A stretch of 64,000 bases of DNA from a virus. Both the position numbers and the translations under genes were made by a program. Below, one piece after another: positions 3,984 through 48,557 of this stretch. The DNA is taken from the IMG/VR virus record IMGVR_UViG_3300001918_000004. One strand, 5' to 3'. The notes under the pieces are model-generated. The model made no database searches and was not told the DNA's origin. It worked only from the letters and a program-made list of their open reading frames with translations. The first letter of the stretch is position 1. Each line of letters begins with the position of its first letter.

Positions 3984-6900
3984 TTAGTTGCCGCCACTGA
4001 TCAGGCATTTGTCGGAATCACACGCCATTCCGCCTAAGCCTTCGTTGCGGTTAGCCTCATCTACAGCCAAGTCGTACTCACGCAAAGCAGCACTAAAGTC
4101 TGAAGTTTTACGGCGTTGTTCAACTTCAGCCACTAGCGTATGGTACGTGCCTGCATCGATAGGCTCAAACGGCAGTCTGGGAAATGTCTCTGAGTCGTTA
4201 AACCGAGCTAACAACGCCGCAGAAATGTATCCTTCATCGCTGTGAATCGCTTCAAAGATACAACGGGCTGCGATAGGAATTTCTTCACGCGTAAGCTCTA
4301 ACGTGGCAGACGTATTGAACGTTGTCCAATGCTTTTGGTTTTGCATGTAAAAATCCCACTGAGCGTCGAACGGCATCGAAGCAATGTCGATGTCGGTTTC
4401 CGCAACAGTATCCGCCCAGGAAACTTTGGTGGGGATTTCCACCAACCATTCCTTAACCCGTGGATCGTACGGGTCGTCTAATAACTTGCCGTTTGCGTCA
4501 GTAGAGCCTTGGCCTGGGACGATTTTGTAACCGTAGTCTTGGCAGGCTAACGCTACTGGATCATTGACTGCGAATGTAACCCGACGAATGAAGTATTGTC
4601 CTTTCGGCAAGTGAATGCCTGGAGACGATCCTGTTAGAAGTGATTTCGTGTTGTGAGAGTTCAGTGCGCCGGTGAAATACCATGCACCGTTATCTTCGTC
4701 CATCGCATCTACGGTAATGTCCCAGGTGCGGAGGTTTCGGATTTCAGCTTCAACTTCATTCAAGTCTCGGACTTCCTGCACTTCGTACAAGAAGGGGTTG
4801 AATGGCCCAGATTGAGCTTTACCTTGAACGCCCTTGTACAGCGGCGAATACTCTCGAAGTAACTCATCCACTCCCCATGGAGTGTTGCGCTCTTGAAAGA
4901 TCAGACGCCATGCAGGGTTCTTGTGGTAATGAATGCTGGGTTTAACGGGTTGTTCAATCAGCAACGGAATGCCGACAGCTTCGGCACACTGCTGAAAGCA
5001 CGATAGCGTTGACCAATTGGAAAACGCCACAGTCACTTTGCGGTCTTTGTTTAACCGCCCTTTCATTTCGATGACTGCACCGATAAAGGCGATAATGGCT
5101 TCCGCAGAGGACTTGCGTACAATCGTCGGTATCCGATCCGGTATGGCGTTGCCGTCAAGCTTTGCTACGCCGGTACGCTCTAACCACCGAGCTAACGCTG
5201 GAAATGTGATACTGGCTTCAAAGACTTTATTGCTACGGTTATTCAGTTTCAGTTTAATTTGAAACAACTCTTTAACCGCATCAGACAACACCTTAAAAGC
5301 ATGCTCACGTTTGGTAGTGAACCAAATAGTATCTTCGCCTTCACCGTACGAATAACCGCATACCCAATACATCGCTAAAAAACGAGCAACAGGTGCAGTG
5401 ATGACGTTTAAATGCTGTACGGCATACACATCACCATCTTCTTGACGCGTAACGTGCGGAAACTTAGACGTGTAATTACCTAACACATGGAAACAAACAT
5501 CCCCAGGTTGCAGGTCTTTAGCGCACTTCCACTCGCCCGTATTGTGCATCTGAATGCGGTGGTTACGGGTGAAGTAGATTTGACGACCGTTACGGAACAC
5601 CACTAAACGCAACGGTTGATAGGTGTTGGTAAAGCTCAGTAGGCTCGGAATGCCGCGAACGGAACGGCTGGAGCATTTTTCAGCTTCGTCGTAATACAAA
5701 AGACCTTGATCTAGGTTACGCACTTGCAGAAGATCTGTGCAGCCTGCGGGTTGGTGTCCCGTAAACCGAGTCGGGCAGCGAAGGTTTTGTTGCTTGCAGT
5801 ACAAGCTAATTGTACGTTCGACAACCTCTTTCCATTGACTTAACAACGTCCGCTCTAAGTACAGAAACACTAAGCTTTCGCAAGCTTGATACCCTGCGAT
5901 GTCATGCTCTTTGTGAATGGACAGCGGGATGTAGTCTAACGTCTGTACTGTTTTACCCCACCGGTGCGGGCGACCGGCTTGCCACCACTCTAACCAACGC
6001 TGACCAAACAACGCTACAAAGTAGTCCACGGCTCCAGTAAAGGTGACTTGAGTAATGGGATCAATCTCTCTACTGTATCTAAAGCGATCTTCGTGGAAGT
6101 TTTGATGCAGGTGACTGGCGTTCATCAACGCACTAACAATAAATGCTAACTTGATGCGGGTTAGATCCCATGGTGTGTTTACGAACCGAATCAAGTGAAC
6201 GTCGCTTAGACTGCACATGAAATCTGATCCGATCACCTCACCGCAGTTATGAACAACCAACTGATTCGCTAACGTAAACCGATGCGTGTCTTCGACTGTA
6301 CAGCAATACACTGGAGCCGTTGTATCTAAGTTGCGAACACGACGCACCGTAAAATACTTGTCGATGCTTGTGGGAATGTCTGGCATGGGGATTGCAGTAT
6401 CTCGCTGCAACCGCTTAAGCGGCAGACGCACCGCAATAGACAACGCATGAATACCTGCACAACGGACTCTAATGCGACGGGTTTCTGGATCTAAACGCCG
6501 AATGGAGTAGATACGGTTCAGTTGCAGCAGCGTTTGCACGACTTGAGCTTCGTCGTCAGAGCGCATGATTACGTCGTACGTTGGTAACAAATTCTTACCC
6601 GCACCTAAGTACGATCCAAACGCATCATAAAAACCAGCCAAAAACGATAACTGATACGGAGATCCGAGCGTAAACACTAGCTGAAGGGTATCCGCATCAA
6701 ACTGGCGTTCGTAACCCCAAACGTACGCATCTTCTTCCGTAACGTTGCTGTCTTTGTCTGCAAGCATTAAAGCGCGCTGACCTGTTTCGGGAGATGTATT
6801 TGCGTAAAGCGGTGTCCAGTGAAGCACATCGCCTTTCACTAACTCATCGGCGTGTTTAGTCTGATCCAGCCCTAACAGAAAGAACTTGTGCTCTGGCGTA

Positions 6901-8846
6901 CACGTAACAGTTAAGCCGCTGTACAGCGTAATCTCAACCAACGGTGAATCTGCTTCGGTTTGTCTAAAGCGGGTATTCACCCATTCCGAACCAGTCCACA
7001 CCGTTACATCTTTCCCTACGATGTCTTTGATTTGACGCACACCTTTGTGGGTTGCAACGAACGTTTCACCAACAAAACATGGATTCGTGCCGTAACGCAA
7101 CAAGCGGTGACGTAATTCGGGGTAAGGCATCTGCGGATAATGCTCTCTAATCCAGGCCTCACCTTGCCCTTCGTCTAATGCTCGAATGAAAGACAGCTTT
7201 TCTGAACGGGTGTGCCATAGGTCAGCGTTACACCGAGCAATTGACTCGTTAGCGTAAAGAATCGCACCTTCACCGGATTCGTACTGTTTCGTGACGGCCT
7301 CTAACACTTCTTCGTAGGTCGGCTTGTGATGGAACACTCGAGACAGATTCGCCATACGCATGGCATCACGGTCTGGATCTATGACCCAACTCCCGTCCGG
7401 TTTCTGCTCCCACAAATTGTCTTTAGCGACTTTGAACCGCTGATCTGCGTAATTTCCGATTTGAATGTTCGCAGAGTTGTGCGTCAACACACCATTCGCA
7501 AAGAAGCAGTGGGCTTCTTCCACTTCGATGTCGAGCACTGGAACGAGGTTGTGTAATCGCTTATGCACAATCAAATCCGGTACTAACCCATCCGGCGTGT
7601 TGCGGAGCATGTAATCGCCGGTGTACGTGAAGATAGCGGGAGACCACACGGCTTCTGGGTAGTAACGGCACGGCGTTTCAGGTTCTTTGCCAGCGATACG
7701 CAAGATGCGGTACTGAAGCGAGTCTTTAATGATTACGGCGTTGCGGTGTCGATCTGTACAACGCAGTGCCGTACCACTTTCAAGCATGAACTCCCACGTC
7801 TGCTGGTAGCCTTGCCGAAAGACGTTTAGCACTTTACGCAGACCGATGGGGGTCTGCACTAAATCCCCAACTTGAATGTCTTTGATTGGGACTGCGCCTT
7901 TGTCTGTGTCTATCGGAGTATCTTCAGGTAAGCAACGACGGACGTTTCCGGCAACCACTGCAAGACCGGCTTCGTTGAGCAACAAGCACGCTGTTACACT
8001 GTCCAAACGTGAATCTAACGCGTTGTTCAAATACCGAGCGGCGTTGATGAAAAGATCAGGCAATCGGCTAGGGTTACTACGACCGCCAAACCCTTTAATA
8101 CGCGCACCTTGTTTACGGACGTGGCTAATATCGACAACGACGTGAATAGGCTCTGTTTCAGATACGCCTTGCGCTACGTTTGGCGGAAGTTCTGTGTCTG
8201 ATGTAGCTAACCGCATGAAAGAGCGATACGCTTCAACCCAGCCTTCTCTACTGTCTCCAACGCGAATCGTGACCTGTAGCACGTTGTCCGAGTTGCGTTC
8301 AGCGTACTTTGTGGTTTTTGGATACCCTGGATGGACTGCACCAAACGAACCTTGAATCTCCACCGAAAGTCTGTGACAGATGAATGGAGCTTTTTCAGGT
8401 TCCAAAAATACAAGCTCTAGGTTTGCACCTGTACCTGAACCTTGACACAGCAAATCAAACAATACGGCGATGTCGTCTGTATTTTCGATGTTGCGGGAGC
8501 AGCAGTTGTACAGCCCGTAATAGTTTTCAGGGCGTTGTGACCATTCGGTTCCGGCGACCCATAAGTTGCGTCCGCTGGGTAGTGCGTACAGCGAATACAG
8601 ATGCGAGTACAGCAGCGAATCTGTATCTAGCTGCCGATAAAAATCCTCGACTTGTTCTGGGGTATAGCCTAACGCCTGTAAAAACTGGCGTTCGTATTCG
8701 GGTGAGACTTTACCCATGGACACGAGTCCGTCATACACGCGTTTGCAGGTTTCTGGCCATGTTTCACGAGACCCATCCTTGTGAAATCGAGCGTATGTCC
8801 GAAAATACACGGGATCTGCGAGGGGAGCGTTAGCGGGGAAATACAT
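3984..8846 (-). CDS. nrdJ: Class II (adenosylcobalamin-dependent) ribonucleotide reductase with three inteins; about 825 aa after splicing
   Basis: PVYFRTYAR..ETW, PSGRNLW, YNCC, VVAGNVRR/SA, TNP/CGE active-site loop, QPAG/TKSLL, C-terminal ACDSDKC. Probable start is the ATG at 8846. Confidence 0.93.
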   Translation of the reverse strand: MYFPANAPLADPVYFRTYARFHKDGSRETWPETCKRVYDGLVSMGKVSPEYERQFLQALGYTPEQVEDFYRQLDTDSLLYSHLYSLYALPSGRNLWVAGTEWSQRPENYYGLYNCCSRNIENTDDIAVLFDLLCQGSGTGANLELVFLEPEKAPFICHRLSVEIQGSFGAVHPGYPKTTKYAERNSDNVLQVTIRVGDSREGWVEAYRSFMRLATSDTELPPNVAQGVSETEPIHVVVDISHVRKQGARIKGFGGRSNPSRLPDLFINAARYLNNALDSRLDSVTACLLLNEAGLAVVAGNVRRCLPEDTPIDTDKGAVPIKDIQVGDLVQTPIGLRKVLNVFRQGYQQTWEFMLESGTALRCTDRHRNAVIIKDSLQYRILRIAGKEPETPCRYYPEAVWSPAIFTYTGDYMLRNTPDGLVPDLIVHKRLHNLVPVLDIEVEEAHCFFANGVLTHNSANIQIGNYADQRFKVAKDNLWEQKPDGSWVIDPDRDAMRMANLSRVFHHKPTYEEVLEAVTKQYESGEGAILYANESIARCNADLWHTRSEKLSFIRALDEGQGEAWIREHYPQMPYPELRHRLLRYGTNPCFVGETFVATHKGVRQIKDIVGKDVTVWTGSEWVNTRFRQTEADSPLVEITLYSGLTVTCTPEHKFFLLGLDQTKHADELVKGDVLHWTPLYANTSPETGQRALMLADKDSNVTEEDAYVWGYERQFDADTLQLVFTLGSPYQLSFLAGFYDAFGSYLGAGKNLLPTYDVIMRSDDEAQVVQTLLQLNRIYSIRRLDPETRRIRVRCAGIHALSIAVRLPLKRLQRDTAIPMPDIPTSIDKYFTVRRVRNLDTTAPVYCCTVEDTHRFTLANQLVVHNCGEVIGSDFMCSLSDVHLIRFVNTPWDLTRIKLAFIVSALMNASHLHQNFHEDRFRYSREIDPITQVTFTGAVDYFVALFGQRWLEWWQAGRPHRWGKTVQTLDYIPLSIHKEHDIAGYQACESLVFLYLERTLLSQWKEVVERTISLYCKQQNLRCPTRFTGHQPAGCTDLLQVRNLDQGLLYYDEAEKCSSRSVRGIPSLLSFTNTYQPLRLVVFRNGRQIYFTRNHRIQMHNTGEWKCAKDLQPGDVCFHVLGNYTSKFPHVTRQEDGDVYAVQHLNVITAPVARFLAMYWVCGYSYGEGEDTIWFTTKREHAFKVLSDAVKELFQIKLKLNNRSNKVFEASITFPALARWLERTGVAKLDGNAIPDRIPTIVRKSSAEAIIAFIGAVIEMKGRLNKDRKVTVAFSNWSTLSCFQQCAEAVGIPLLIEQPVKPSIHYHKNPAWRLIFQERNTPWGVDELLREYSPLYKGVQGKAQSGPFNPFLYEVQEVRDLNEVEAEIRNLRTWDITVDAMDEDNGAWYFTGALNSHNTKSLLTGSSPGIHLPKGQYFIRRVTFAVNDPVALACQDYGYKIVPGQGSTDANGKLLDDPYDPRVKEWLVEIPTKVSWADTVAETDIDIASMPFDAQWDFYMQNQKHWTTFNTSATLELTREEIPIAARCIFEAIHSDEGYISAALLARFNDSETFPRLPFEPIDAGTYHTLVAEVEQRRKTSDFSAALREYDLAVDEANRNEGLGGMACDSDKCLISGGN
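4650..5741 (-). mobile_element. Intein 3 in NrdJ (364 aa, LAGLIDADG-like endonuclease)
   Basis: Begins CTDLLQV, has FTRNH and AFIGAVIEMKG, ends TGALNSHN; +1 residue is Thr. Confidence 0.85.
6246..7079 (-). mobile_element. Intein 2 in NrdJ (278 aa, partial LAGLIDADG region)
   Basis: Begins CFVGETFV, has CTPEH and FLAGFYDAFG, ends LANQLVVHN; +1 residue is the Cys of NP-C-GE. Confidence 0.9.
7476..7934 (-). mobile_element. Mini-intein 1 in NrdJ (153 aa, no endonuclease)
   Basis: Begins CLPEDTPIDT, has block B CTDRH, ends FFANGVLTHN; +1 residue is Ser. Confidence 0.9.
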
Positions 8847-8859
8847 AGTAACCACAGTG

Positions 8860-9852
8860 TTAGGGAAGACAATGAAGCGAACCAATCAACACCTGACTTG
8901 CAGGACTGACCGGCGTGTAGGCGTGTGTAAGTTTTCCGGTGTGCGGAATTTGCTCCACATACCGGACACGTAACTTACTCTTTTCTTGCCGCAATCCGTT
9001 CAACTGGTTGCGACGAAACATCTTGTGATACTGACTTAAAGACCGAACATGTTCTTGCTCTCTGAAAAACCGCAACGCCGGTTCGACAGATAACGGAATG
9101 ACTCGGTGATCAAACTTACGCAGGGTCACATAGTAGCTAAACGGTAATGTGCCCCAGGCCTGTCCTTGGTTCATCAAGTCCAAACCTTTGGATGACGTAA
9201 AGACTTTCTTGCTGTAACAGACTTCAAACGGAAGGTTTAGACGCGCTAAAACAGATGCCAGAACTTGAGCACTTTCTTTGTCGGGCACACGGACACGACA
9301 ACCGATAGTTAAATTTTTGGTGATGTGCCAGTAACCCACTACAGAACACATCCGACCTACAAATTCCCACAAAGATTCTTCTGTAAGTTCTTTGAAATAT
9401 TCAAGCAAATACGCAGCTAGTGATGTGCGTTCAGATACGAGTCGCAGCAGCAGTTCATCATCGTCGTGATACCCGACATTGACGTGCGGAATTTGTTCAC
9501 CGTAACGCCGAATGGATGGCGATGTAGCTTTGACCGGCGGTACATAAAACGCCGGTTGCAGGGCTGTGTTTTCGATAGTGTCTGCTTGGTTTAGGTGTTG
9601 ATGTACAGACATATCACCTAACGCTGTCGGCAATCGTTGATCCTCTGTTACGTCTATGCTGTAGCCATTGCTTAGCGTTAAGCGATAGAGCGCAACAGAG
9701 TTCGGCACAACGATTTGCTTGAACTGCATCGGTAGCCACATCAGTCCGGTGCTAACCAAAACAGGATCGGCGTACTTCCAGGCGTCTGCAACCGACATCA
9801 ATCCAAATCTGGTAATCAGGACATTAGTTCCGAGAACGGCCATTAGATGCAA
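8860..9852 (-). CDS. Free-standing degenerate intein-like (Hint + LAGLIDADG-like) protein
   Basis: AVLGTNVLITRFGLMSVAD resembles block A; LYRLTLSNGYSIDVTEDQR resembles block B with His replaced by Gln; EFVGRMCSVVG resembles LAGLIDADG; the C-terminal beta region lacks the terminal HN. Confidence 0.6.
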   Translation of the reverse strand: MHLMAVLGTNVLITRFGLMSVADAWKYADPVLVSTGLMWLPMQFKQIVVPNSVALYRLTLSNGYSIDVTEDQRLPTALGDMSVHQHLNQADTIENTALQPAFYVPPVKATSPSIRRYGEQIPHVNVGYHDDDELLLRLVSERTSLAAYLLEYFKELTEESLWEFVGRMCSVVGYWHITKNLTIGCRVRVPDKESAQVLASVLARLNLPFEVCYSKKVFTSSKGLDLMNQGQAWGTLPFSYYVTLRKFDHRVIPLSVEPALRFFREQEHVRSLSQYHKMFRRNQLNGLRQEKSKLRVRYVEQIPHTGKLTHAYTPVSPASQVLIGSLHCLP

Positions 9853-35124: not shown

Positions 35125-36318
35125 TTATACCCTTGGGTAGTGGAACAGGTCTTTACTTTTTTTGGTTGGTTTGAAGCTTTTGATTGCTAATACATGCTTG
35201 TTATAGGTGTACATCTGTATCCCCGTCCAAGGACGTTCAAACACAATCAAATTTCGGTGAAGGTGATAACGCCCAAAATACGGTATTGGGGTGTCTAATG
35301 GTCGATAGTACTTTTCGATACCTTCAAGTTCGTGTAAATCATACAAACGAATTGGCGTAGGCCTGACAGGATGCAATCGCCACAACAATTTATTTCGAGT
35401 CTCGGGTGCTCTTGGATGCTCTGACAGTTTCTTACTTCCTTCTGGAGTCCGAAGCAAGGGTGTTTCTGCGTGAGCTAAGTCATTGTTAAACGGACTGGCC
35501 CAAAACGTTTGGGGAACTTCACAAATGCGTGGTGTTTGTCCGCCCCAGCAAATGTTTCCGCTATCGTACACGTTTGTAATCGGAAACGGAGATGACCACA
35601 TCCGCAGTGTGTCCGGCAACGTATCCGCTTCCATGTGTGTCAGCAGCATTCTGACGCTGTGACGCGCCATATCAGAATACAGAGCATTACCGTTGTCATT
35701 TGTTTGCACTCTCAAAGTAAACGCATGCGGTGGGGTGTAGATTGTTTGAAGTAATTGTTTTGTTCCGATGTACGCTTCAAACCCTCTGGGGCAGTCTGTT
35801 GGATCGATTTCTTTTGCGGTGTTGCATGGAGGCTCGTCCTCGGGGTCGTTGAAATACGCTTTACCGCAGTTTGAACAGTAGGTCTCGTAGAACTCTACAG
35901 CATTCATTCGAGCGTTTGGGACTTCAACTACGGTAGAAAGTTGTTTAGGTTGACTGAACCCAAAAAACACGTTGTCCAAGTTACCCAAGTGGATGCCTGT
36001 CCATTCGTGCTTTGGCAGAGAAAACGACCCATAGTTTAAACGCTTAGATAGCAGGTCTATGATCGTGTGCAAAACACTATCTACCGCCTCAGAACATGCA
36101 AACACATGCATAGAATCTGTCGATGGGTGAGTGTTACCGGAAAGAGAAAGCTCTAAGTAGCAGGCATCTGCGGGTGTTGGTGGCAGTATTTTGGAGGTAA
36201 CAACCCATACGTGGTCTGCTGTAGGAGCAGCGCGCTGAGCGTCACGCAGCAAAATTTTTGTTAATGGGTCAGACAGTAACTTATTTACGTTTGACCACTG
36301 TTCTTCAGTAGGGTACAT
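35125..36318 (-). CDS. Prokaryotic E2-like protein 6 (Prok-E2_D/PRTRC-B-like) with Cys-rich insert
   Basis: PFPITNVYDSGNICWG..FWASPFNNDL; EFYETYCSNC..C..CP. Confidence 0.75.
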   Translation of the reverse strand: MYPTEEQWSNVNKLLSDPLTKILLRDAQRAAPTADHVWVVTSKILPPTPADACYLELSLSGNTHPSTDSMHVFACSEAVDSVLHTIIDLLSKRLNYGSFSLPKHEWTGIHLGNLDNVFFGFSQPKQLSTVVEVPNARMNAVEFYETYCSNCGKAYFNDPEDEPPCNTAKEIDPTDCPRGFEAYIGTKQLLQTIYTPPHAFTLRVQTNDNGNALYSDMARHSVRMLLTHMEADTLPDTLRMWSSPFPITNVYDSGNICWGGQTPRICEVPQTFWASPFNNDLAHAETPLLRTPEGSKKLSEHPRAPETRNKLLWRLHPVRPTPIRLYDLHELEGIEKYYRPLDTPIPYFGRYHLHRNLIVFERPWTGIQMYTYNKHVLAIKSFKPTKKSKDLFHYPRV

Positions 36319-36324
36319 ACGGTG

Positions 36325-37734
36325 TTAAACATCCTTGCATGACGTAACGATGATGGGGTAGCAACTACCCAATAAACCGCCGTATAGTTCAACGGAGGTT
36401 GTTCCGACTGGAAACAAAAACACAGCCGACGAAGTGAACCGATTACACGAACCTCTCCCGCCAGGTTCCCCGCCAAGTAACACAGCTTGGTTTAACTGAT
36501 ACTCTTCAGACGAAGGTTTGGCGATGCGGTAAAGTGCTGCGTTATTTATTTCGGATGTTAGTTGTTGGATACGCTCTGCGCCTGCAACACCGCTAGACAA
36601 GTGATACCAATCGTCATGCTCCAGGTCGGAGTTAAAGTAAGCACACCAAAACTTTTCGATGGCGTCTTGCATGCCGTGTCTGTCGATGTTGTCACCGAAA
36701 CAGATACGACCTGAGCCGTAAACGTTAAAGAACCGAAGCGCACGCAGCAAAAGAATGTCGTTACCAAACGCATCAGTTTGAAACGCGTGAGAACTAATGT
36801 ACATATCCTGGTTGTCTTGGTCATTGAGTAGTGAGTTTAGATTGTGTCCGTAACCGTAATTGTGCGGAGGCAGCGTGATGCTACACACTTTGATGTTGCT
36901 GGTTTCTTCGTCGTCTAAAACATTACCTTCAGGGCACTCGTCTAACTCCATCCAACTTGAACTCATCATGCCGGAGCAGCGGGATCGTTCATGATACCGA
37001 CTTTGAATGTTCATTAAAATAGAGTTCGTGCTGTAATAATCAGGCATCATGGACTCGTATGACTCGTTCCACAACGCTTCAATGTCTTCCGGTGTCAGGT
37101 CTCGTCCCAACTCTGCACGGCGTTCGTTAACTAAGTCGTAATCAAGCAAAGACCGAGCGATAAAATCCGTGTCGTACACCGCTAAAAAGCCTTCTTCATC
37201 GCAAATATCGTGCGCGAAGTCTTCGATGCTTTCTTGGTAGTTGCTGTACAGAGGACAATCCAAACAATACTCGTTAAAAAACTCACGGCGAGGCTGGTCG
37301 TCGCTTTGGGCCGATTGGTACTGAATTTGAGTCGTAACAAACTCGTCTCGAAAAGACAGCAGCACACCATTTACGCCGTCGTCTAGAATAATGCCTGAAT
37401 GTTTGTGTCGTTTCGGTAACTTGTGAACGACTGGATCTGTGCTGCCGTATCGAACCGCAGGATACTTCTCACACTCCGTCAGTTCCTCAAAAGCACACAA
37501 CTGCACACACAAGTCCAGATTTAACCACTCGATTACGTCTTCAGTTGCGTTTAGATACGTGTAAGCCAGTGGGAAACGCAATTCATCGTACAGGTGAGCT
37601 AGTAGTTTGGGATCGCGTTGAGCAAGAGCGTTGCTTAACGCCGGAGTGATCAAGATGCTAGGTAAAATAACAACCTCACGGGCAGATTCGGCCTCAGCAT
37701 GTGCTTGACGCAATGCTTCGTTGAGATAGTCCAT
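36325..37734 (-). CDS. Prokaryotic E2-like protein 5 with Cys-rich insert
   Basis: LRFFNVYGSGRICFG..FWCAYFNSDL; EFFNEYCLDC..C..C..CP. Confidence 0.75.
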   Translation of the reverse strand: MDYLNEALRQAHAEAESAREVVILPSILITPALSNALAQRDPKLLAHLYDELRFPLAYTYLNATEDVIEWLNLDLCVQLCAFEELTECEKYPAVRYGSTDPVVHKLPKRHKHSGIILDDGVNGVLLSFRDEFVTTQIQYQSAQSDDQPRREFFNEYCLDCPLYSNYQESIEDFAHDICDEEGFLAVYDTDFIARSLLDYDLVNERRAELGRDLTPEDIEALWNESYESMMPDYYSTNSILMNIQSRYHERSRCSGMMSSSWMELDECPEGNVLDDEETSNIKVCSITLPPHNYGYGHNLNSLLNDQDNQDMYISSHAFQTDAFGNDILLLRALRFFNVYGSGRICFGDNIDRHGMQDAIEKFWCAYFNSDLEHDDWYHLSSGVAGAERIQQLTSEINNAALYRIAKPSSEEYQLNQAVLLGGEPGGRGSCNRFTSSAVFLFPVGTTSVELYGGLLGSCYPIIVTSCKDV

Positions 37735-37748
37735 AATAAACCTCTGAA

Positions 37749-38579
37749 TTAAAGGGATGAGTGAGTTTTAACGACAAATCTGTTCAGGTTAACTGCTTCT
37801 GGGTCAGGTGCGTACAGCGTTATTGCTTCGGTACCAGCGGGCAGCTTTAATACGGGTTTGGAACCTGGCTCTTTGCGTTGGGGTGCATTAGGTTCAAACA
37901 CATTCCAAAGCGAGTGTATGTTGTATTTGACGTGTGCAACAGCATCGGATTTAGTTGCCTCACCAAATCCGAAGCAGTCTGCATAGTCCACTTCACCTTC
38001 ATCATTGAAGGGCGTAGCCCAAAACAACGTGCAGACATCCACCAAAGAAAGTATGCTTCGTGACCCGTAACATATTTCACCGTCGGTATAGGTGTTCAGA
38101 ATTGGATACGGTGTGACAGCGATCTGATCTGTCCACGTGCGGTTTATCTCTGTTGCATCACACATCATGTACAAACGCGCACGATCAAACACATATTCAA
38201 AGTTGTCGCTGTTGTTACGCCAGTTCTGGATTAGACTTACTTTGTACAGATGAGGGGCGATCCAAATGTCTTTGTAGTCTGCCAAACTATCGATTTCCGA
38301 TAAAATGCAGCATTGTACTTTACGCATTTGGTCGTAACAGACAACGACAGAAATCACCTCCCACATATCTGAAACCGACAAACCTACCCAACTACAGCTT
38401 TTCGGAACAGGGTGGTTCATTAACCAGGCTGTTGGCGGATCGTCTGTTTCAAACAACTGCGCCATACGAGTTGCTGCCATTAGATCGTTTTCAGGAGACG
38501 AAACGACGATTTGGTAATCCGGTAAAGAGTCGGGGTCGTCATCAGAAAAGGTTCTGGGAATGTACCAGTAATCTGCCAT
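37749..38579 (-). CDS. Prokaryotic E2-like protein 4
   Basis: DYWYIP; PYPILNTYTDGEICYG..FWATPFNDE. Confidence 0.75.
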   Translation of the reverse strand: MADYWYIPRTFSDDDPDSLPDYQIVVSSPENDLMAATRMAQLFETDDPPTAWLMNHPVPKSCSWVGLSVSDMWEVISVVVCYDQMRKVQCCILSEIDSLADYKDIWIAPHLYKVSLIQNWRNNSDNFEYVFDRARLYMMCDATEINRTWTDQIAVTPYPILNTYTDGEICYGSRSILSLVDVCTLFWATPFNDEGEVDYADCFGFGEATKSDAVAHVKYNIHSLWNVFEPNAPQRKEPGSKPVLKLPAGTEAITLYAPDPEAVNLNRFVVKTHSSL

Positions 38580-38589
38580 TGTGTAACCT

Positions 38590-39459
38590 CTAAGATGTGT
38601 GTGTGCGGAACATGGTGTGCCGTGTTTCGTAGTCTTTGAATACGGTCACAGACTTAACGTTTTCTGGGAACAAGATCAAGGTATTTAGATGCGGTTCAGA
38701 CATAAGTGGATATACCTGTCGGTCATCGCTGTGATGAAACACGGTGCAGCTACGGCACAAATCTGGACGCTCGTCTTTTACGTGACGTTCTAGCTCGTCC
38801 GCTGTAAGAGGCGAAAACCCAATCATTTCACTTCGGGGAAAGTCGCCATCTGTATTGAATGGCGATGACCAAAACAACTGCACAGCTTCGTCAAATGATT
38901 TCGGGTAATTTGAGCCGAAGCACACATACCCGTTGACACCCATGTTGTACTGCCGAAGGCCTGTGAAAAAGTCTTCACCTGTGCCGTTTAGCGGTAAATG
39001 TGTGTGAATGAAAGGCCCAGAAAACGGTCGTGACAAATCGTGGAAATGGTAACAAAACATGTGCGGCGGAACATGCAAAGTTATGTCGCTTGTTTCGTAC
39101 GATTCGCTGTAGTTGTTATACGTTTCCATAACGCTGTGCATTACCGTTGGTTTTTCATAACCTATAGCCAGCGCAACGTTGGTATAGTGGTCGTTGTGGT
39201 AAAGAATACCGGCCCAGGTTTTAGCTGAGGGCAGCTTCATCTGTGGAACCATGTGCGGTAGTTTTAGCTTTTTGACGAACTCGGTTTGGTTTCTAAGCAC
39301 TAGATCCCAAACTCGCATAACTTTGTAGTCTATGTCGTCGTTCGCAGGAATCCGAATGTAACTAGACCGGCTGAGTATTTTTTTCCATTGCGGCGTTTCG
39401 TCGCTACACACCCAATGCTCTGGTATGTACCAGTATTCTGTGACGTCAGGCTTTTGCGT
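38590..39459 (-). CDS. Prokaryotic E2-like protein 3 (start uncertain; the homologous start position is ACG)
   Basis: EYWYIP; LRQYNMGVNGYVCFG..FWSSPFNTD. Confidence 0.7.
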   Translation of the reverse strand, partial: TQKPDVTEYWYIPEHWVCSDETPQWKKILSRSSYIRIPANDDIDYKVMRVWDLVLRNQTEFVKKLKLPHMVPQMKLPSAKTWAGILYHNDHYTNVALAIGYEKPTVMHSVMETYNNYSESYETSDITLHVPPHMFCYHFHDLSRPFSGPFIHTHLPLNGTGEDFFTGLRQYNMGVNGYVCFGSNYPKSFDEAVQLFWSSPFNTDGDFPRSEMIGFSPLTADELERHVKDERPDLCRSCTVFHHSDDRQVYPLMSEPHLNTLILFPENVKSVTVFKDYETRHTMFRTHTS

Positions 39460-40321
39460 GGGTTCGGATGAGCGTTGTACCGCCGCACTGACTCGACCAA
39501 ACAGTGACCGCACGCGTGTGATTAGGGAATTTAACAAAGTAGATCACCTCGTCTTTAGGGCATAAGCTGAATGGGGTTTTAGGTTCTGGTTCTACAAAAC
39601 CAAACAGGTGTTTGTTTTTGTCTGGTACGGTTTTCATGTATTTGTCCGCTGCCTCTGATGTAAGACGTACCGGCAGATCAGACTCCAGTACCAGTTCGTC
39701 ATCGAACGGCGTGTCCCAATAAGCGGATAGCAGTTCGCTGAACGACTGCGGATCCGCATCACCTAAACAAACCGCACCGTCATCAAACACGTTGTAAAAC
39801 GGTAGCGGAGCTATACTGAACGCGTCTTGAGAGGTGTTCGATACTAAATACAAAAACGGACACTCAAACGGATCGTCTTCAGAAAAACCACATTCAATAG
39901 ACACCATGTGTTTTGGCACATCGAACGTGAAGATTGAGTCGGGTTTTTCTGATGGTGATCCGTCTGTTATGTGTTTGAGCACACCTACTTTCTGACGAAT
40001 TACATTAGGCACAAGCGCATGCAGCAGCACAGAATCTTGCTGGATACCTTCGATGCCCTCTTCGACGTAGCTAAATCCGTGGATGCAGTGTTTTGATAGC
40101 GGTGATAGACCCATCCACTTATAGAACATGTAATCTTTGTGTTCCTGATTCAGTAAGCGACCCAAACGAGTGTTCAACCCTGGAGTAGCTGGCAAAGCCA
40201 CATACTCTGTTTTGCCCTTAACGTGAACGTCAAAGTCAGGTAACTTGATTGATGCCGTTTCGAGGTTGGACACAAACGAAACAGGGATGTACCAGTATTC
40301 TGTTGTGTCAGTCGGTTGCAT
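39446..40321 (-). CDS. Prokaryotic E2-like protein 2
   Basis: ATG 40321; EYWYIP; PLPFYNVFDDGAVCLG..YWDTPFDDE. Confidence 0.78.
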   Translation of the reverse strand: MQPTDTTEYWYIPVSFVSNLETASIKLPDFDVHVKGKTEYVALPATPGLNTRLGRLLNQEHKDYMFYKWMGLSPLSKHCIHGFSYVEEGIEGIQQDSVLLHALVPNVIRQKVGVLKHITDGSPSEKPDSIFTFDVPKHMVSIECGFSEDDPFECPFLYLVSNTSQDAFSIAPLPFYNVFDDGAVCLGDADPQSFSELLSAYWDTPFDDELVLESDLPVRLTSEAADKYMKTVPDKNKHLFGFVEPEPKTPFSLCPKDEVIYFVKFPNHTRAVTVWSSQCGGTTLIRTHAKA

Positions 40322-41168
40322 AGGTTCGGAAGATGGCTGCGTGTGTGTACAGGCATGTCCAGCTTGAAACGCGCCTGGTTGTGTCGGGGAATTTAACAAA
40401 GCGAAGTACCTCATCTATAGGATGGACATCAAAAGGTTCGTTAGGCTTAGGCTCTACCAAGACGTAAGTATGGTGGAATCCGCAAGCATCTGATTTAAAG
40501 TGGTCGCTTACCCGTTCTGGCGTTAAGTCGAATAGAAGATCTGATTCGTCTCCCATTTCATTGCTAAAAGGCGTGTCCCAATACGCCGAAAACAGTTCGT
40601 TAAACGATGTAACGTCAACTCCGCCTAAACATACAGTGGCATCGACATAGACGTTGTAAAACGGAAGTGGACATGCTTGAAACTGGGCGTGTACGGTGTC
40701 AGAAATCAGGTAAAAATGCGGGCTTCCAAATGGATTTCCGCCAAAATAGCAGTCGATAAGTACCATGTGTTTTGGTACATCGAACGTGATCTTTGAAATC
40801 GGGCGTGTGTCTGATTCGTTCTCGCTAGGGTGTTCCAGCTTAAGTAAGCCGGTTACTTGACGCTTTACGGTGGGCCTGACCACATGCAAGAATGTACCTT
40901 TGAACGAATGCGCCGGAAGCGTTTCGTCACTATAGCTAAACCCGGCATAGCAGCTTTTCGGTATCGGTTGCTGTTCCAGCAGCGGTCTAAACCGTTCACC
41001 CTGGCTTGAAGCAAACAGTGAGTTTATGCGTGTATCTACATCAGGCGTAGCCGGAATAGCTATATAGCCAGTACCGGCCGGTCTAGGGTAGGTTTGGTTA
41101 AGGTTAAACTCGAAGGTCTTGCGATCCCCTAAAAAGCAATACGGGATGTACCAGAACTCGTTTTCCAT
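40308..41168 (-). CDS. Prokaryotic E2-like protein 1
   Basis: EFWYIP; PLPFYNVYVDATVCLG..YWDTPFSNE. Confidence 0.78.
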   Translation of the reverse strand: MENEFWYIPYCFLGDRKTFEFNLNQTYPRPAGTGYIAIPATPDVDTRINSLFASSQGERFRPLLEQQPIPKSCYAGFSYSDETLPAHSFKGTFLHVVRPTVKRQVTGLLKLEHPSENESDTRPISKITFDVPKHMVLIDCYFGGNPFGSPHFYLISDTVHAQFQACPLPFYNVYVDATVCLGGVDVTSFNELFSAYWDTPFSNEMGDESDLLFDLTPERVSDHFKSDACGFHHTYVLVEPKPNEPFDVHPIDEVLRFVKFPDTTRRVSSWTCLYTHAAIFRTYATD

Positions 41169-41171
41169 GCG

Positions 41172-42248
41172 TTAACTGCCTTGGGTGTAATAGAAGGGGT
41201 CAAGGGTTTCGTCGTAGTCGAGTTTGCTTGCAGGCAAAGCTTTGATTTCCAGTGCAGGTTTTTGTGTGTTGGTGTACTGTTTTTCGTACCCTGCGTACTC
41301 GATACTGACTAACGCCTCAGCTAAATGGTCAAACGTGAGATCATCGCCATAAGTTGTCATTAGCTGTTCGATAAAGGTTTCAAACTCGATCAACGCTTCT
41401 TGTAGTTTGGAATAATGCTGCCCGAGTGGAGTGCGTGCAGGTGTGTCTTGCTCTTTCCGACCAGGCAGAAGTTTGGACAAATCAAACCCATACGAGTTGC
41501 GCTTGCCGTAGCTTTTAGAGTTAAAGGTCTGCCAACGCCGCTTGTAGTGTTCGCTGTAAACACCGTCCGCATAGTCGGTGTAGTACGAATGTTGGCTGAT
41601 GAATGAAAACACACTCTCGTGCGGCTTGGTTGGTTCCTCACCTTCTGCACCGGCCAGTTCGATTAAGTCAGCCGCAGCAATTTTGTAACGCTTGCGTTGC
41701 TGCACGATAGAGGCGTCAGGTACATATTCCATCTTGGCAAGACTGATGCTGCGAACAAGAATGTGCGCCCCAGGCACGTCTAACTCGTTGGCGTCATCTA
41801 CGGCGGAAAAGCTGCACGACATAACATGATGCGAGTGCGATGATCCGGCATGCAGCCAACCGGCAGGCGGAAACTGGTCGTAAACTTCGCCCGTAATAAG
41901 GTCGATGCAGTTTGCAAAGTCTTCAGCGTGAACGCTTGCACCTGTGACGGTTTGTTTGGGTACAACAACTTTCCACTGCTGTTTTGTAGCAGCGTCACGC
42001 AGCAACAGCACAGATACTTCTAAGCTGCTGATGCGGGCGTAGTGAAAGTACAGGTCAATGATTGCAGACCACAGAGAATACGGGATTTTGGGGATGTCTG
42101 GACGTAACTGAAACTCAACCGGCACTTTGTCCACCGTTGCGAGTGGGTCTGGAATTTGCTGGTAGTACGCACCCCAAGCCGTAAGTTTGGGTAGATACAC
42201 GCCACTGAAGGGGGTACGAATCAACTGATCGTTAGCGTCGTTAGTCAT
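41172..42248 (-). CDS. JAB/MPN+ metalloisopeptidase (prokaryotic JAB, PRTRC-A-like)
   Basis: LEVSVLL, VPKQTV, SHSHHVMSCSFSAVDDANE (HxH..S..D motif). Confidence 0.9.
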   Translation of the reverse strand: MTNDANDQLIRTPFSGVYLPKLTAWGAYYQQIPDPLATVDKVPVEFQLRPDIPKIPYSLWSAIIDLYFHYARISSLEVSVLLLRDAATKQQWKVVVPKQTVTGASVHAEDFANCIDLITGEVYDQFPPAGWLHAGSSHSHHVMSCSFSAVDDANELDVPGAHILVRSISLAKMEYVPDASIVQQRKRYKIAAADLIELAGAEGEEPTKPHESVFSFISQHSYYTDYADGVYSEHYKRRWQTFNSKSYGKRNSYGFDLSKLLPGRKEQDTPARTPLGQHYSKLQEALIEFETFIEQLMTTYGDDLTFDHLAEALVSIEYAGYEKQYTNTQKPALEIKALPASKLDYDETLDPFYYTQGS

Positions 42249-42303
42249 AACGTAAACCTAGGTATGTGAATAAAAAAAATCCAACCAATCGGCCCGGTAG
42301 TCA

Positions 42304-42335
42304 TGCAGGTGTGAGAGTTATTGCTCACACCTGCA
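42304..42335. terminator. Perfect 12-bp hairpin between E1 and JAB
   Basis: TGCAGGTGTGAG...CTCACACCTGCA. Confidence 0.55.
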
Positions 42336-42344
42336 CACCGCTAC

Positions 42345-43064
42345 CTACGTGAGGGCTTTCATTTTGTGAGTGGACAGATCGAACAGAATCTCAGTCGGTG
42401 GTTCAGAGGTGAAACGACCGCTTAAGAAACATTCGAGATAGTGCAGCGATATGGTTGCTGCCATTGCATTTGCTGTAATGAGTTGCGGCGTTGATTCTTG
42501 CGCCTCAAAACAACCACGGCGGTTGTTGCTTGGGCGACGATCTTTCGGTGCGCCGATGTCGGGGTACACCTCACGAGGATCGGCACAAATAGCCGTACCG
42601 TGTTCGTCTCGACCGAAGATAAGCACGCGTCCAGTGTCGTAATCGTTGCCTGGGCTGATGTACAGATACGAACATCCGACCGCATCGCAGGTGTCTAGTA
42701 CAAGCTTGCGTGTGGCGTGATTGTCAACAGCACAAAGCACAACTAACGGACGTTCGGTGCCGGTGCGTCGATGGGATTCAATCACCTCACGCAACTGATA
42801 CGTGTCTGCGTACACGGGACGAGTTTCGACAGTGAGAGCTTCAAGCACATCGGGACTAATTAAAGCAGCAGCGGCTTCGGCTTTGTTTGCATCAGGGATG
42901 TAACCGAGTTGTCGCTGGGCATTTTTAGCCTCGTAGGTATCGCCGTCCATAATGACAAGGCGTTTGGGTGCATCGGGGTGGTACGCCAGTAAGCGAGACA
43001 ACGCTGGCAACATGTGCGTACCTGTGCCTCCGGCACCTATGAGTAGTGCAGTAGAGGTGGACAT
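42345..43064 (-). CDS. E1/ThiF-family ubiquitin-like activating enzyme
   Basis: LIGAGGTG, DGDTYEAKNAQRQ, CAVDNHATRK, ISPGN, C-terminal CFE..PQLITANAMAA with candidate catalytic Cys. Confidence 0.92.
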   Translation of the reverse strand: MSTSTALLIGAGGTGTHMLPALSRLLAYHPDAPKRLVIMDGDTYEAKNAQRQLGYIPDANKAEAAAALISPDVLEALTVETRPVYADTYQLREVIESHRRTGTERPLVVLCAVDNHATRKLVLDTCDAVGCSYLYISPGNDYDTGRVLIFGRDEHGTAICADPREVYPDIGAPKDRRPSNNRRGCFEAQESTPQLITANAMAATISLHYLECFLSGRFTSEPPTEILFDLSTHKMKALT

Positions 43065-43110
43065 GTTATTTTGATGGTGATGTGTGTGTTACGAAAATCG
43101 TGACCATCCC

Positions 43111-43156
43111 GTATTGTTTGGGGCGCAACCGTTACACGACAACGCCCCAACAATAC
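43111..43156. terminator. GC-rich hairpin between Ubl and E1
   Basis: GTATTGTTTGGGGCG...CGCCCCAACAATAC. Confidence 0.55.
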
Positions 43157-43166
43157 TTTTTAGGGA

Positions 43167-43460
43167 TTAGCAGCCTTTAGATTCGGCAGAGATGGAGAGA
43201 GTAACAACGTCACCGGCTTTGACAACGGTACTGAAGGGTTGCACGCTGCCATTGAGACGGGCAGTGGTGATCCGGTCAGGACGAAACCCGAGTTCATTGG
43301 CAGCAGCAGAAAGAGCTTGCCCGATGGTCAAGCCTTCAGTGACAGGGATTTGGGTTTCTTCGAGAGCGAATTGCACGGTAACGGTGGTGGGAACGGGAGC
43401 GGAATCAGCAGGAGCGTTGTTGGCAGAGTTGTTGTTGTTGTTGAACAAGAAGTTAAACAT
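43167..43460 (-). CDS. Ubiquitin-like beta-grasp protein ending in SKGC
   Basis: VTVQF..IPVTEGLTIGQAL..ARLNG..VVKAGDVVTL..ESKGC; first gene of the Ubl-E1-JAB-E2 run. Confidence 0.85.
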   Translation of the reverse strand: MFNFLFNNNNNSANNAPADSAPVPTTVTVQFALEETQIPVTEGLTIGQALSAAANELGFRPDRITTARLNGSVQPFSTVVKAGDVVTLSISAESKGC

Positions 43461-43469
43461 GGTAGTTAC

Positions 43470-44000
43470 CTAGTAATGTGTGTGTTGAGTGGACAAAAAA
43501 GAACAGTGCAACGTATTCGGAAAGGAGTCCTTAACGGTTTGCACGTCCTGCGCTGTTAAGCGCACACAGTCATCTAAGTCGATAACTGTCGCCTCTGTGC
43601 CGTTGGCGTCGGATACGGTATGTCTAACCCACAATTGGCCCAAGATACCAAGGGATAGACAGCTACCGCACGGCACGATTATTGAATTTTCACGCACGTA
43701 TTCGTTGCCTTGCGCGAGGGCGCACAGGTCATCAAACTTAGCGATTTGGTGCAAAACATACACCAACCCGTTTTCACGGTGTAGTCCGTGTACGACATAC
43801 GTGGGTAAAACACAAACTGGATACACGTCGGAAATGTTGGATTTGCCTAACATAACCATAACCTGATCCAACGATCCGGTTATTGCAAGTTCAACATTAT
43901 CTACAAACTCGTAGGCTAAACCTGTGTTGGTTAAGTAAGCGGGATATTTACCGGCGACTGTAGCCAGCGCAATGACTTCGTTAGGCTGCGATGAGGTCAT
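43470..44000 (-). CDS. Hypothetical protein
   Basis: 176-aa ORF directly upstream of Ubl. Confidence 0.6.
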   Translation of the reverse strand: MTSSQPNEVIALATVAGKYPAYLTNTGLAYEFVDNVELAITGSLDQVMVMLGKSNISDVYPVCVLPTYVVHGLHRENGLVYVLHQIAKFDDLCALAQGNEYVRENSIIVPCGSCLSLGILGQLWVRHTVSDANGTEATVIDLDDCVRLTAQDVQTVKDSFPNTLHCSFLSTQHTHY

Positions 44001-48372: not shown

Positions 48373-48428
48373 AATAAAAAACCTCTCAACTACACAACAA
48401 CAAAATTAACCGCTGCAATGAACGGTTA

Positions 48429-48513
48429 CGCCTCGTGCAGGAATCGAACCTGCTGCTACGTCGCAAACAAACTCCACTAAGTTTGCAACGCATCCTCCCA
48501 TGAGGTACGAGAC
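48429..48513 (-). ncRNA. tRNA-like RNA 2 with non-canonical anticodon arm
   Basis: Acceptor GTCTCGT/ACGAGGC; D-arm CTC-ATGG-GAG; 10-bp stem CGTTGCAAAC/GTTTGCGACG with a 12-nt loop; T-arm GCAGG-TTCGATT-CCTGC. Confidence 0.7.
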
Positions 48514-48557
48514 AAAAAACACACGCCGTAGCAAGTTATTGTTGTTGCGGCGTGTGT
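48514..48557 (-). terminator. Rho-independent terminator-like hairpin
   Basis: ACACACGCCG/CGGCGTGTGT arms followed by a T run on the minus strand. Confidence 0.55.

What the first reader, a model, noticed from the sequence alone, without database searches (positions are those of the whole stretch)
35125..41168. Six-copy tandem expansion of divergent E2-like genes
All six retain the Cys: NVYDSGNICWG, NVYGSGRICFG, NTYTDGEICYG, NMGVNGYVCFG, NVFDDGAVCLG, NV YVDATVCLG-type motif, each followed by (F/Y)W..(P/Y)F. Four start with a shared (Y/F)WYIP motif. The pair at 39446-41168 is alignable along its length and shares junction DNA, so it looks like the most recent duplication. Inference: with one E1 and no recognisable E3, diversified E2s with variable N-terminal halves may supply substrate specificity, as expected for an arms-race gene array.
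Basis: partly seen in the sequence, partly recalled or inferred. Interest (0 to 1): 0.85.

Follow-up and report, generated by a model that had tools for sequence, protein, structure and literature searches.

The report
Six-gene E2 array in phage
An uncultured phage carries a ubiquitin-like protein-tagging kit with one tag, one activating enzyme and one trimming protease but six diverged tandem copies of the transfer enzyme (E2), the largest such array among about 50 related gene clusters compared here. Nobody has tested what it tags.

Summary
Six adjacent minus-strand genes (35125-41168) are real paralogues of one family, a divergent branch of Pfam Prok-E2_D. All six keep the N-x8-C-x-G ... 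(F/Y)W..(P/Y)F signature. A profile built only from 95 metagenomic relatives scores each copy at 54-69 bits. AlphaFold models of a short copy and a long copy both match almost only UBC-type E2 enzymes (Z about 5). Upstream lie one JAMM/JAB protease, one ThiF-type E1 and one Ubl ending ESKG-C.

- **Three classes:** E2a and E2b each have an orthologue in a syntenic sister phage that carries three E2s. The short class has four copies here (c-f), spaced about 862 bp apart.
- **Copy number elsewhere:** in 51 related loci it is 0 (11 loci), 1 (30), 2 (6), 3 (3) and 6 (this window only).
- **Rate:** E2 is always the fastest-evolving part of the cassette (median 33% identity against 61% for E1).
- **Age:** synonymous sites between the closest pair (e/f, 41% amino-acid identity) are saturated. 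dN/dS cannot be computed, and "recent" holds only in relative terms.
- **Possible decay:** E2d has lost its ancestral ATG. This is the only sign of decay.

E2-borne target specificity is plausible but untested. This scan noted a similar multi-E2 phage system on other DNA (e1-5304791).

The parts
43167..43460 (-). Ubl precursor (97 aa). It has an Asn-rich leader and a beta-grasp-like body, and ends ESKG-C.
   Evidence: Weak Pfam ThiS match (E 0.004). It is 59% identical to the Ubl of sister phage L002, which has the same ESKG-C end; L001 ends ESKG-RH. It is the only ORF of the window that matches the Ubl profile.
42345..43064 (-). Minimal ThiF-type E1 (239 aa), single copy.
   Evidence: Pfam ThiF 1.7e-12. 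NCBIfam PRTRC_ThiF 2.4e-9, far below its cutoff. Invariant GAGGTG and an invariant Cys185 in alignment A3. It is 72-73% identical to L002.
41172..42248 (-). JAMM/JAB-type metalloprotease (358 aa), presumed to trim the Ubl and remove conjugates.
   Evidence: No Pfam match. E77, H138, H140, S148 and D151, which form the E...HxHx7Sx2D JAMM motif, are invariant across the three orthologues. It is 54% identical to L002.
40308..41168 (-). E2f, short class (286 aa). Starts MENEFWYIP; Cys180.
   Evidence: AF2 model with pLDDT 84.8 and pTM 0.83. The top structural matches are nearly all UBC E2s, Z 4.5-5.4 over residues 56-226. AFDB cluster hits are to 'UBC core' and 'PRTRC system protein B'. Scores 54 bits against the external profile.
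39446..40321 (-). E2e, short class (291 aa from ATG 40321; the ORF is open to ATG 40414).
   Evidence: 41% identical to E2f over 284 aa. Sister of E2f in both trees (100/99 and 99). Pfam Prok-E2_D E 0.0036. 60 bits against the external profile.
38590..39537 (-). E2d, short class, start uncertain. The ancestral ATG is now ACG. Candidate starts are TTG 39537 (preceded by GAGGTGA), GTG 39513, and GTG 39411, which would remove the YWYIP strand.
   Evidence: Junction alignment and list of candidate starts. The database gene call is the 273-aa form (P0006). 59 bits against the external profile. Its nearest relative is the 280-aa E2 of L002 (support 88).
37749..38579 (-). E2c, short class (276 aa). 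Starts MADYWYIP, has a GAGGT Shine-Dalgarno site, and is the most divergent copy.
   Evidence: No Pfam hit, but 60 bits against the external profile. Long branch of 2.9 in the tree. It lies in register with d, e and f at 850-865 bp spacing (D1, D7).
36325..37734 (-). E2b, long class (469 aa), with an N-terminal extension and Cys-bearing inserts.
   Evidence: Pfam Prok-E2_D at 25.1 bits, just at the gathering score. Orthologue of the 444-aa E2 of L002: 31% identity over its full length, clade support 99/95 and 100.
35125..36318 (-). E2a, long class (397 aa), with a CxxC...C...C insert.
   Evidence: Pfam Prok-E2_D E 0.0017. 69 bits against the external profile. Orthologue of the 390-aa E2 of L002 (27% identity, support 98). 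AF2 model has pLDDT 61 overall but 75-92 around the Cys, and its top 31 structural matches are almost all UBC or UEV proteins, Z 4-5.5.

Best explanation
The locus is a phage-borne, PRTRC-like or 'type 6d'-like ubiquitin-like conjugation operon: Ubl, E1, JAB and then an array of six E2 genes.

**Shown**
- All six array genes are intact paralogues with a UBC-type E2 fold that keep the Asn-x8-Cys active-site signature.
- They fall into three classes. Two long classes are older than the split from a sister phage. One short class is present four times with a period of about 862 bp.
- E1, JAB and Ubl are single-copy.
- E2 is the fastest-evolving and the only duplicated component of this cassette family.

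**Inferred**
- JAB removes the residue after the conserved Gly of the Ubl.
- The E1 adenylates the Ubl.
- The activated Ubl passes to the Cys of any of the six E2s.
- Each E2 chooses its own set of targets directly, without an E3. It would do so through its variable N- and C-terminal beta-rich extensions and the variable half of its core.
- The targets would be host proteins (for example defence proteins) or proteins of competing phages. The array would then be a target-recognition repertoire kept diverse by conflict.
For: - **Family:** Prok-E2_D hits for four of the six copies. 85 of 105 aligned family members hit PF14460, best E 4e-22. All six score 54-69 bits against a profile made without window sequences.
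- **Fold:** the E2f and E2a models match almost exclusively UBC E2 enzymes and AFDB 'PRTRC system protein B' / 'UBC core' clusters.
- **Active-site residues:** N and C are invariant in 105 sequences.
- **Partners:** ThiF-type E1, a complete JAMM motif, and a Ubl with Gly followed by one residue. The same arrangement was shown for Type II Bil, where the DUB must expose the Gly (PMC10557695).
- **Operon structure:** junctions range from a 14-nt overlap (92 nt if E2d starts at TTG 39537) to a 14-nt gap, and no terminator signal exceeds the shuffled background.
- **Retention:** all six ORFs are intact although synonymous sites between the closest pair are saturated. E2a and E2b are kept full-length in the sister phage.
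- **Diversification:** E2 orthologues are 26-31% identical against 72% for E1 and 54% for JAB. E2 is below E1 in 260 of 260 locus pairs.
- **Duplication:** E2 duplications recur in separate lineages, namely L070, L040/L049/L067, L104 and L008. E1, JAB and Ubl were each found once in the window.
Against: - There is no biochemical, expression or target evidence. No sequencing run could be listed.
- E2d lacks the ancestral start codon.
- Fast E2 evolution could reflect weak constraint rather than diversifying selection, and dN/dS cannot be computed.
- Structural Z-scores are only about 5. They are convincing through the uniformity of the hit list, not through their height.
- Only E2b reaches the Pfam gathering score.
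- The host is unknown, so the anti-defence reading is a guess.
Confidence: 0.55

Rival explanations
1. Partly decaying or redundant array. Only one to three copies (for example the conserved long classes a and b plus one short copy) are working E2s. The remaining short copies are relics of duplication drifting under weak constraint.
For: E2d has ACG where E2e has its start ATG. E2c is on a very long branch and has no Pfam hit. The sister phage has only one short copy. High E2 divergence is also what relaxed constraint would give.
Against: All four short copies are open over their full length and keep every invariant family residue, although even the closest pair is saturated at synonymous sites. 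An unconstrained 280-codon frame would not stay open that long. E2d still has an in-frame TTG preceded by GAGGTGA. Each copy scores 54-60 bits against the external profile.
Confidence: 0.2
2. Decoys or inhibitors. Some or all E2 paralogues do not serve the phage's own Ubl. They would instead bind and block host Ubl-based immune machinery (Bil, type II CBASS Cap2/Cap3, Bub). Different copies would be tuned to different host systems.
For: Host defence systems built on E1, E2 and Ubl exist (PMC10557695; PMC10097602 listed). The fast evolution and multiplicity of E2 would fit a counter-defence role.
Against: The phage carries its own matching Ubl, E1 and JAB in the same operon. The catalytic Asn and Cys are invariant in all copies and across 105 relatives, which a pure binder would not need. 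There is no PADLOC match to BilB or Cap2.
Confidence: 0.1
3. Cooperative E2 set. The paralogues act together as hetero-oligomers or in a relay on the same targets, like Ubc13-Mms2 pairs or priming and extending E2s, rather than each picking its own targets.
For: Three distinct classes (a, b, short) are conserved together in two phages. Two-E2 cassettes with one long and one short E2 recur in L008 and L009.
Against: No copy has lost the Cys, so there is no UEV-like partner. Most related cassettes work with a single E2 (30 of 51 loci). The short class varies in number (1 against 4), which fits interchangeable modules better than a fixed complex.
Confidence: 0.1

Closest known systems
Pfam Prok-E2_D (PF14460), the E2-like proteins of operon type '6d' of Iyer, Burroughs & Aravind 2006 (PMC1779556)
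   Same: Same sequence family. Same partners, namely a Ubl with a C-terminal Gly, a JAB and an E1-like protein. Like that class, these proteins lack the classical HPN histidine.
   Different: Five of the six copies score below the Pfam gathering cutoff. The 6d feature of an absolutely conserved His C-terminal to the Cys does not appear as an invariant column here. The E2 is present six times rather than once, and the setting is a lytic-type phage genome. I did not look for the extra alpha-helical protein of 6d.
PRTRC system (ParB-related, ThiF-related cassette; NCBIfam TIGR03736 PRTRC_ThiF, TIGR03737 PRTRC_B)
   Same: The best named NCBIfam matches are PRTRC_ThiF for the E1 and PRTRC_B for E2b. 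The best named AFDB fold clusters for the E2f model include 'PRTRC system protein B'.
   Different: Scores are far below the curated cutoffs (36.9 against 144.75, and 14 against 131.45). No ParB partner was examined. PRTRC is known from plasmids and ICEs with a single protein B, and as far as I know its function is also untested.
BilABCD (Type I and II) bacterial ISG15-like anti-phage operons
   Same: Same four-part logic of Ubl, E2, JAB-type DUB and E1. The Ubl has a conserved Gly followed by extra residues that the DUB must remove, and the E2 acts without an E3 (PMC10557695).
   Different: Only a marginal PADLOC BilD hit for the E1 (13.6 bits) and none for the E2, DUB or Ubl. The E1 here is a minimal 239-aa protein rather than a multidomain one. 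The system is encoded by the phage rather than the host, and it has six E2s.
Single-E2 cassettes in cultured Bacillus jumbo phages (vB_BceM_WH1 gp214-216, Edson)
   Same: The same E2, JAB and E1 families in a phage genome (E2 profile E about 2e-22, JAB 1e-10, E1 4e-27).
   Different: One E2 only. Identity is low (E1 about 26-28%). The genes are annotated as hypothetical proteins apart from ThiF.

Membership tests
UBC-like E2 superfamily / Pfam Prok-E2_D (PF14460) | Sequence match to the family model at or above the gathering score (25 bits) | tested here: inconclusive
   E2b scores 25.1 bits and meets the cutoff. E2a 18.5, E2e 17.5 and E2f 14.0 are below it, and E2c and E2d have no hit. However, 85 of 105 aligned relatives hit PF14460, best E 4e-22, and all six score 54-69 bits against a profile of those relatives.
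UBC-like E2 superfamily / Pfam Prok-E2_D (PF14460) | UBC (alpha/beta E2) fold | tested here: met
   In the E2f model (pLDDT 84.8), 18 of the top 19 VIA-align matches are UBC E2s, Z 4.5-5.4, with about 120 residues aligned. In the E2a model the top 31 are almost all E2 or UEV proteins, Z 4.0-5.5. Z is modest, so the case rests on how uniform the lists are. The other four copies were not modelled.
UBC-like E2 superfamily / Pfam Prok-E2_D (PF14460) | Conserved catalytic Cys eight residues after a conserved Asn (the counterpart of HPN...C) | tested here: met
   N and C are invariant in all six copies and in all 105 family members. The spacing is N-x8-C in the six copies.
UBC-like E2 superfamily / Pfam Prok-E2_D (PF14460) | Formation of a Ubl~Cys thioester after E1 activation | not testable with these tools
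   This needs biochemistry. The E1+E2f complex prediction gave no verdict.
PRTRC system (NCBIfam TIGR03734-03742) | E1 and E2 reach the curated cutoffs of PRTRC_ThiF and PRTRC_B | tested here: not met
   PRTRC_ThiF scores 36.9 bits against a cutoff of 144.75. PRTRC_B scores 14 bits against 131.45, and for E2b only.
PRTRC system (NCBIfam TIGR03734-03742) | Linked ParB-related gene and PRTRC proteins D, E and F | not tested
   Only the ten ORFs from 35125 to 44000 were scanned against NCBIfam, and none of these families appeared.
BilABCD | Matches to the BilA, BilB, BilC and BilD models | tested here: not met
   PADLOC gives only BilD at 13.6 bits (E 0.0048) for the E1, and nothing for the E2s, JAB or Ubl.
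Operon type 6d (Iyer et al. 2006) | Ubl + JAB + E1-like + E2-like in one neighbourhood | tested here: met
   The definition is in PMC1779556 Table 1 row 6d.
Operon type 6d (Iyer et al. 2006) | Absolutely conserved His C-terminal to the catalytic Cys of the E2-like protein | tested here: not met
   The invariant columns of the six-way alignment are M1, L90, H198, N249, C257, G259, W273 and F277. The only invariant His lies about 60 residues before the Cys.

The most novel reading that the evidence does not exclude
A phage-encoded, E3-independent ubiquitin-like conjugation system in which a fast-evolving tandem array of E2 enzymes is the target-recognition repertoire. Each E2 would tag a different host defence protein or competitor-phage protein with the same Ubl, and copy number would expand and contract with the conflict. 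This would be the phage-side mirror of host Bil or CBASS ubiquitin-like immunity.
Probability: 0.3. Interest if true: 0.85.

Novelty: new variant of a known kind. Interest (0 to 1): 0.62.

Why it matters
Bacterial and phage ubiquitin-like systems such as Bil, type II CBASS and Bub have only recently been shown to conjugate proteins. How their E2s choose targets without an E3 remains an open question.

A natural operon with one Ubl, one E1 and one DUB but six diverged E2s is a ready-made experiment. The same activated tag is offered to six carriers, so any differences in conjugate sets would map specificity onto the E2 itself.

Two patterns seen across dozens of uncultured phage cassettes point to E2 as the conflict-facing part. 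E2 is the least conserved component, and it is the only component that is repeatedly duplicated. That these systems sit in phages, not only in hosts, suggests that protein tagging is used on both sides of the phage-host conflict.

None of the cassette proteins matched a PHROGs family. In the cultured Bacillus phage record examined, the E2 and JAB are annotated as hypothetical proteins.

Tried and rejected
- **dN/dS for the e/f pair:** pS is 0.76 overall and is saturated in three of the four regions, so no ratio can be given. All other pairs are more diverged.
- **Complex prediction of E1 with E2f:** no verdict (score 0.01). This is not evidence either way.
- **Sequencing runs holding the cassette:** none was listed, so expression and population variation could not be examined.
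- **Close relatives of the window:** megablast against GenBank phages found no match. A word-index protein search with E2f found only itself.
- **Profile search of the six copies:** it also hit giant proteins with 5-20 repeated matches each. Pfam showed the one I scanned (P0007) to be built of Ig_7/CHU_C-type Ig-like repeats, so I treated these hits as spurious.
- **PDB sequence searches:** profiles A1 and A2 and the JAB protein gave nothing useful. Foldseek against PDB gave only weak E2/UEV rows, and BFVD gave only uncharacterised phage proteins.
- **Protein Atlas search for the conserved 176-aa gene upstream of the Ubl:** no usable lead.
- **Contexts of three distant homologues:** the contigs were too short.
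- **Relationships among the short copies:** I could not resolve whether c, d, e/f and the sister phage's 280-aa E2 form one clade. It therefore stays open whether this lineage gained three short copies or the sister phage lost them.
- **Assembly artefact:** rejected, because the copies are at most 41% identical in protein and share only short stretches of 60-80% identical DNA.


Full report
**1. What is there**

The window is part of a phage genome.
- PHROGs recognises a family A DNA polymerase, a ribonucleotide reductase and a primase-helicase.
- The protein database places E2f on an 88,870-bp contig.
- There is no near match among GenBank phages. The closest DNA polymerases, at 29% identity, are from Pseudanabaena phages, so the host is unknown.

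From 43460 down to 35125, on the minus strand and tightly packed, lie the following genes.
- A 97-aa Ubl: weak ThiS match, ends ESKG-C.
- A 239-aa ThiF-type E1: Pfam ThiF 1.7e-12, PRTRC_ThiF 2.4e-9.
- A 358-aa protein without Pfam hits. Its E77, H138, H140, S148 and D151 form a complete JAMM motif and are invariant in three orthologues.
- Six ORFs of 276-469 aa.

Gene junctions range from a 14-nt overlap (92 nt if E2d starts at TTG 39537) to a 14-nt gap. Neither promoter-like nor terminator-like sites exceed the shuffled expectation. This looks like one operon.

**2.

All six ORFs carry N-x8-C-x-G followed by (F/Y)W..(P/Y)F. N, C, G, W and F are invariant columns. Pairwise BLAST links every copy to the others through this region. 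E2e and E2f are 41% identical over 284 aa, and E2d aligns with both over its full length.

At the DNA level, copies c to f lie in register. The 17-nt stretch encoding (E/D)YWYIP recurs at 38557, 39422, 40284 and 41143, with spacings of 865, 862 and 859 bp. Longer e/f stretches are 71-80% identical at 862 bp, across the junction too.

A profile of the six copies finds 208 representatives in 1.84 billion proteins, all with the same signature. Of 105 aligned members, 85 hit Pfam Prok-E2_D, best E 4e-22. A profile built only from the 95 outside members scores the six window copies at 54-69 bits. No other window ORF matches. The repeated hits in giant proteins are spurious: the one I scanned (P0007) is built of Ig_7/CHU_C-type repeats.

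**3. The fold**

The E2f model built with the 105-sequence alignment has pLDDT 84.8 and pTM 0.83. In an all-against-representatives structural search, 18 of the top 19 rows are UBC E2 enzymes (UbcH10 Z 5.4, Ubc13 5.1, UbcH5, Ubc9 and others), covering model residues 56-226. Foldseek on AFDB clusters returns 'UBC core domain' and 'PRTRC system protein B'.

The long copy E2a gives a poorer model (pLDDT 61, but 75-92 around the Cys). Its hit list is likewise almost purely E2 and UEV proteins, Z 4.0-5.5.

The Z values are modest, and the uniformity of the lists is what persuades. The short copies add a beta-rich N-extension (residues 1-55, beginning with the YWYIP strand) and a four-strand C-extension (about 230-286).

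**4. History of the array**

A syntenic sister phage (Logan contig SRR15359040_6293, loci L002/L003) has Ubl, E1, JAB and then three E2s of 280, 444 and 390 aa.
- E2b pairs with the 444-aa protein (support 99/95 and 100).
- E2a pairs with the 390-aa protein (92/83 and 98).
- E2e pairs with E2f (100/99 and 99).
- E2d weakly pairs with the 280-aa protein (88).
- E2c is unresolved.

So three classes predate the split of the two phages, and the short class stands at four copies here against one there. Gain here or loss there cannot be decided.

The 280-aa protein shares the terminal motifs of c-f (MSDEFWYLP... and ...YRTHT).

Between e and f, pS is 0.76, which is saturated, and dN is 0.57.

**5. 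Are the copies alive?**

All six are open over their full length and keep every invariant family residue despite that age. This argues for purifying selection on each copy.

The one blemish is E2d. Where E2e has its start (CCTATGCAA), E2d has CCCACGCAA. An in-frame TTG at 39537 follows GAGGTGA by 7 nt, and GAGGT also precedes the ATGs of E2c and E2b. E2d may therefore start there, with a 33-residue extension that overlaps the end of E2e. The database gene call instead starts at GTG 39411 and would lack the conserved first strand (P0006).

**6. Comparison across relatives**

Searches with the E1 alignment gave 21 viral loci and 80 of 380 metagenomic loci, all at most 40% identical. Counting E2-profile ORFs in the 51 loci of at least 8 kb gave these copy numbers:

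| E2 copies | Loci |
|---|---|
| 0 | 11 |
| 1 | 30 |
| 2 | 6 |
| 3 | 3 |
| 6 | 1 (this window) |

- The three copies in L070 are monophyletic (99), which indicates an independent triplication.
- L040, L049 and L067 share an older duplication.
- L104 and L008/L009 carry two E2s of different kinds.
- In the window only E2 is multiplied, with one match each for the Ubl, E1 and JAB profiles. The relatives generally show the same pattern.
- In 260 locus pairs with E1 identity of 40-90%, the best E2 pair was less conserved than E1 in all 260 and less than JAB in 259. Medians are E1 61%, JAB 53% and E2 33%. These pairs are not independent.
- Between the window and L002, the three E2 orthologue pairs (26-31%) are the least conserved genes of the whole syntenic block, which otherwise spans 28-73%.
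- Two cultured Bacillus jumbo phages carry a single-E2 version, annotated as hypothetical proteins.

**7. Mechanism**

Shown: the parts list, the fold, the active-site signature and the evolutionary pattern.

Inferred, by analogy with Type II Bil: in Bil the Ubl likewise has a Gly followed by extra residues that the JAB-type DUB must remove, and the E2 binds the E1 directly without an E3 (PMC10557695). Here JAB would expose Gly96 of the Ubl, the E1 would activate it, the six E2s would each be charged on their Cys, and the E2s would select targets themselves.

Between e and f the Cys-bearing half of the core is best conserved (53%). The N-extension (36%), the N half of the core (32%) and the C-extension (38%) vary. 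Candidate recognition surfaces are therefore not confined to the N-terminal half.

The purpose is open. Candidates are anti-defence, host takeover or exclusion of rival phages.

**8. Classification**

- The E2s belong to the Prok-E2_D family in the broad sense.
- The operon has the composition of type 6d of Iyer et al. 2006 and resembles PRTRC.
- It fails the curated PRTRC cutoffs by a wide margin and does not match the Bil models.
- The 6d hallmark of a His after the Cys is absent.
- I therefore file it as a new variant of a known kind: a phage branch of the Ubl/E1/JAB/E2_D cassettes, distinguished by an E2 array.
- No paper in the searchable library describes multi-E2 phage cassettes.
- This scan has noted another phage with three to five E2_D paralogues, one E1 and one Ubl (e1-5304791). 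I did not re-examine that finding.

Noticed in passing
window 43079-43102, 43470-43486, 38594-38617: A CACACACAT motif lies 17-25 nt upstream of the ATGs of the Ubl, E1 and E2c genes (D5/D14, 30). At two of the three sites it is also the coding sequence for the ..THT.. C-terminal tail of the preceding gene. It could be a shared translation or regulatory signal, or a remnant of duplication.
   Followed up: no
window 43470-44000 (-): The 176-aa gene directly upstream of the Ubl is 72% identical to its counterpart in the sister phage, as conserved as the E1. It has no Pfam, NCBIfam, PHROGs or Atlas lead. It may be a further part of the cassette.
   Followed up: partly
window 35125-37734 (E2a, E2b); L001:8904-9983: The long E2 classes carry Cys-rich inserts (for example CxxC...C...C in E2a), and the single E2 of L001 has a similar one. 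In the E2a model most of the regions outside the Cys-bearing core are low-confidence (pLDDT under 50 at 61-80, 99-136 and 294-334). Zinc binding is therefore unverified.
   Followed up: partly
L070:414-2345 and L071:3-1931: Three monophyletic tandem short E2 genes (about 215-240 aa) lie about 8 kb upstream of the related E1. L071 starts at its contig end and L070 at the limit of the fetched flank, so the array may be longer.
   Followed up: no
L026 (Bacillus phage vB_BceM_WH1, LC597490.1 181723-184817): gp214, gp215 and gp216 form an E2 / JAB / ThiF-E1 cassette of the same families. gp214 and gp215 are annotated as hypothetical proteins.
   Followed up: partly
window 3984-8885 (-): A 1633-aa ORF matches the ribonucleotide reductase profile in four separate stretches. 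It probably carries one or more inteins or other inserts.
   Followed up: no
window 48428-48514 (-): ARAGORN calls a single tRNA-Cys (GCA) of 87 nt, unusually long.
   Followed up: no
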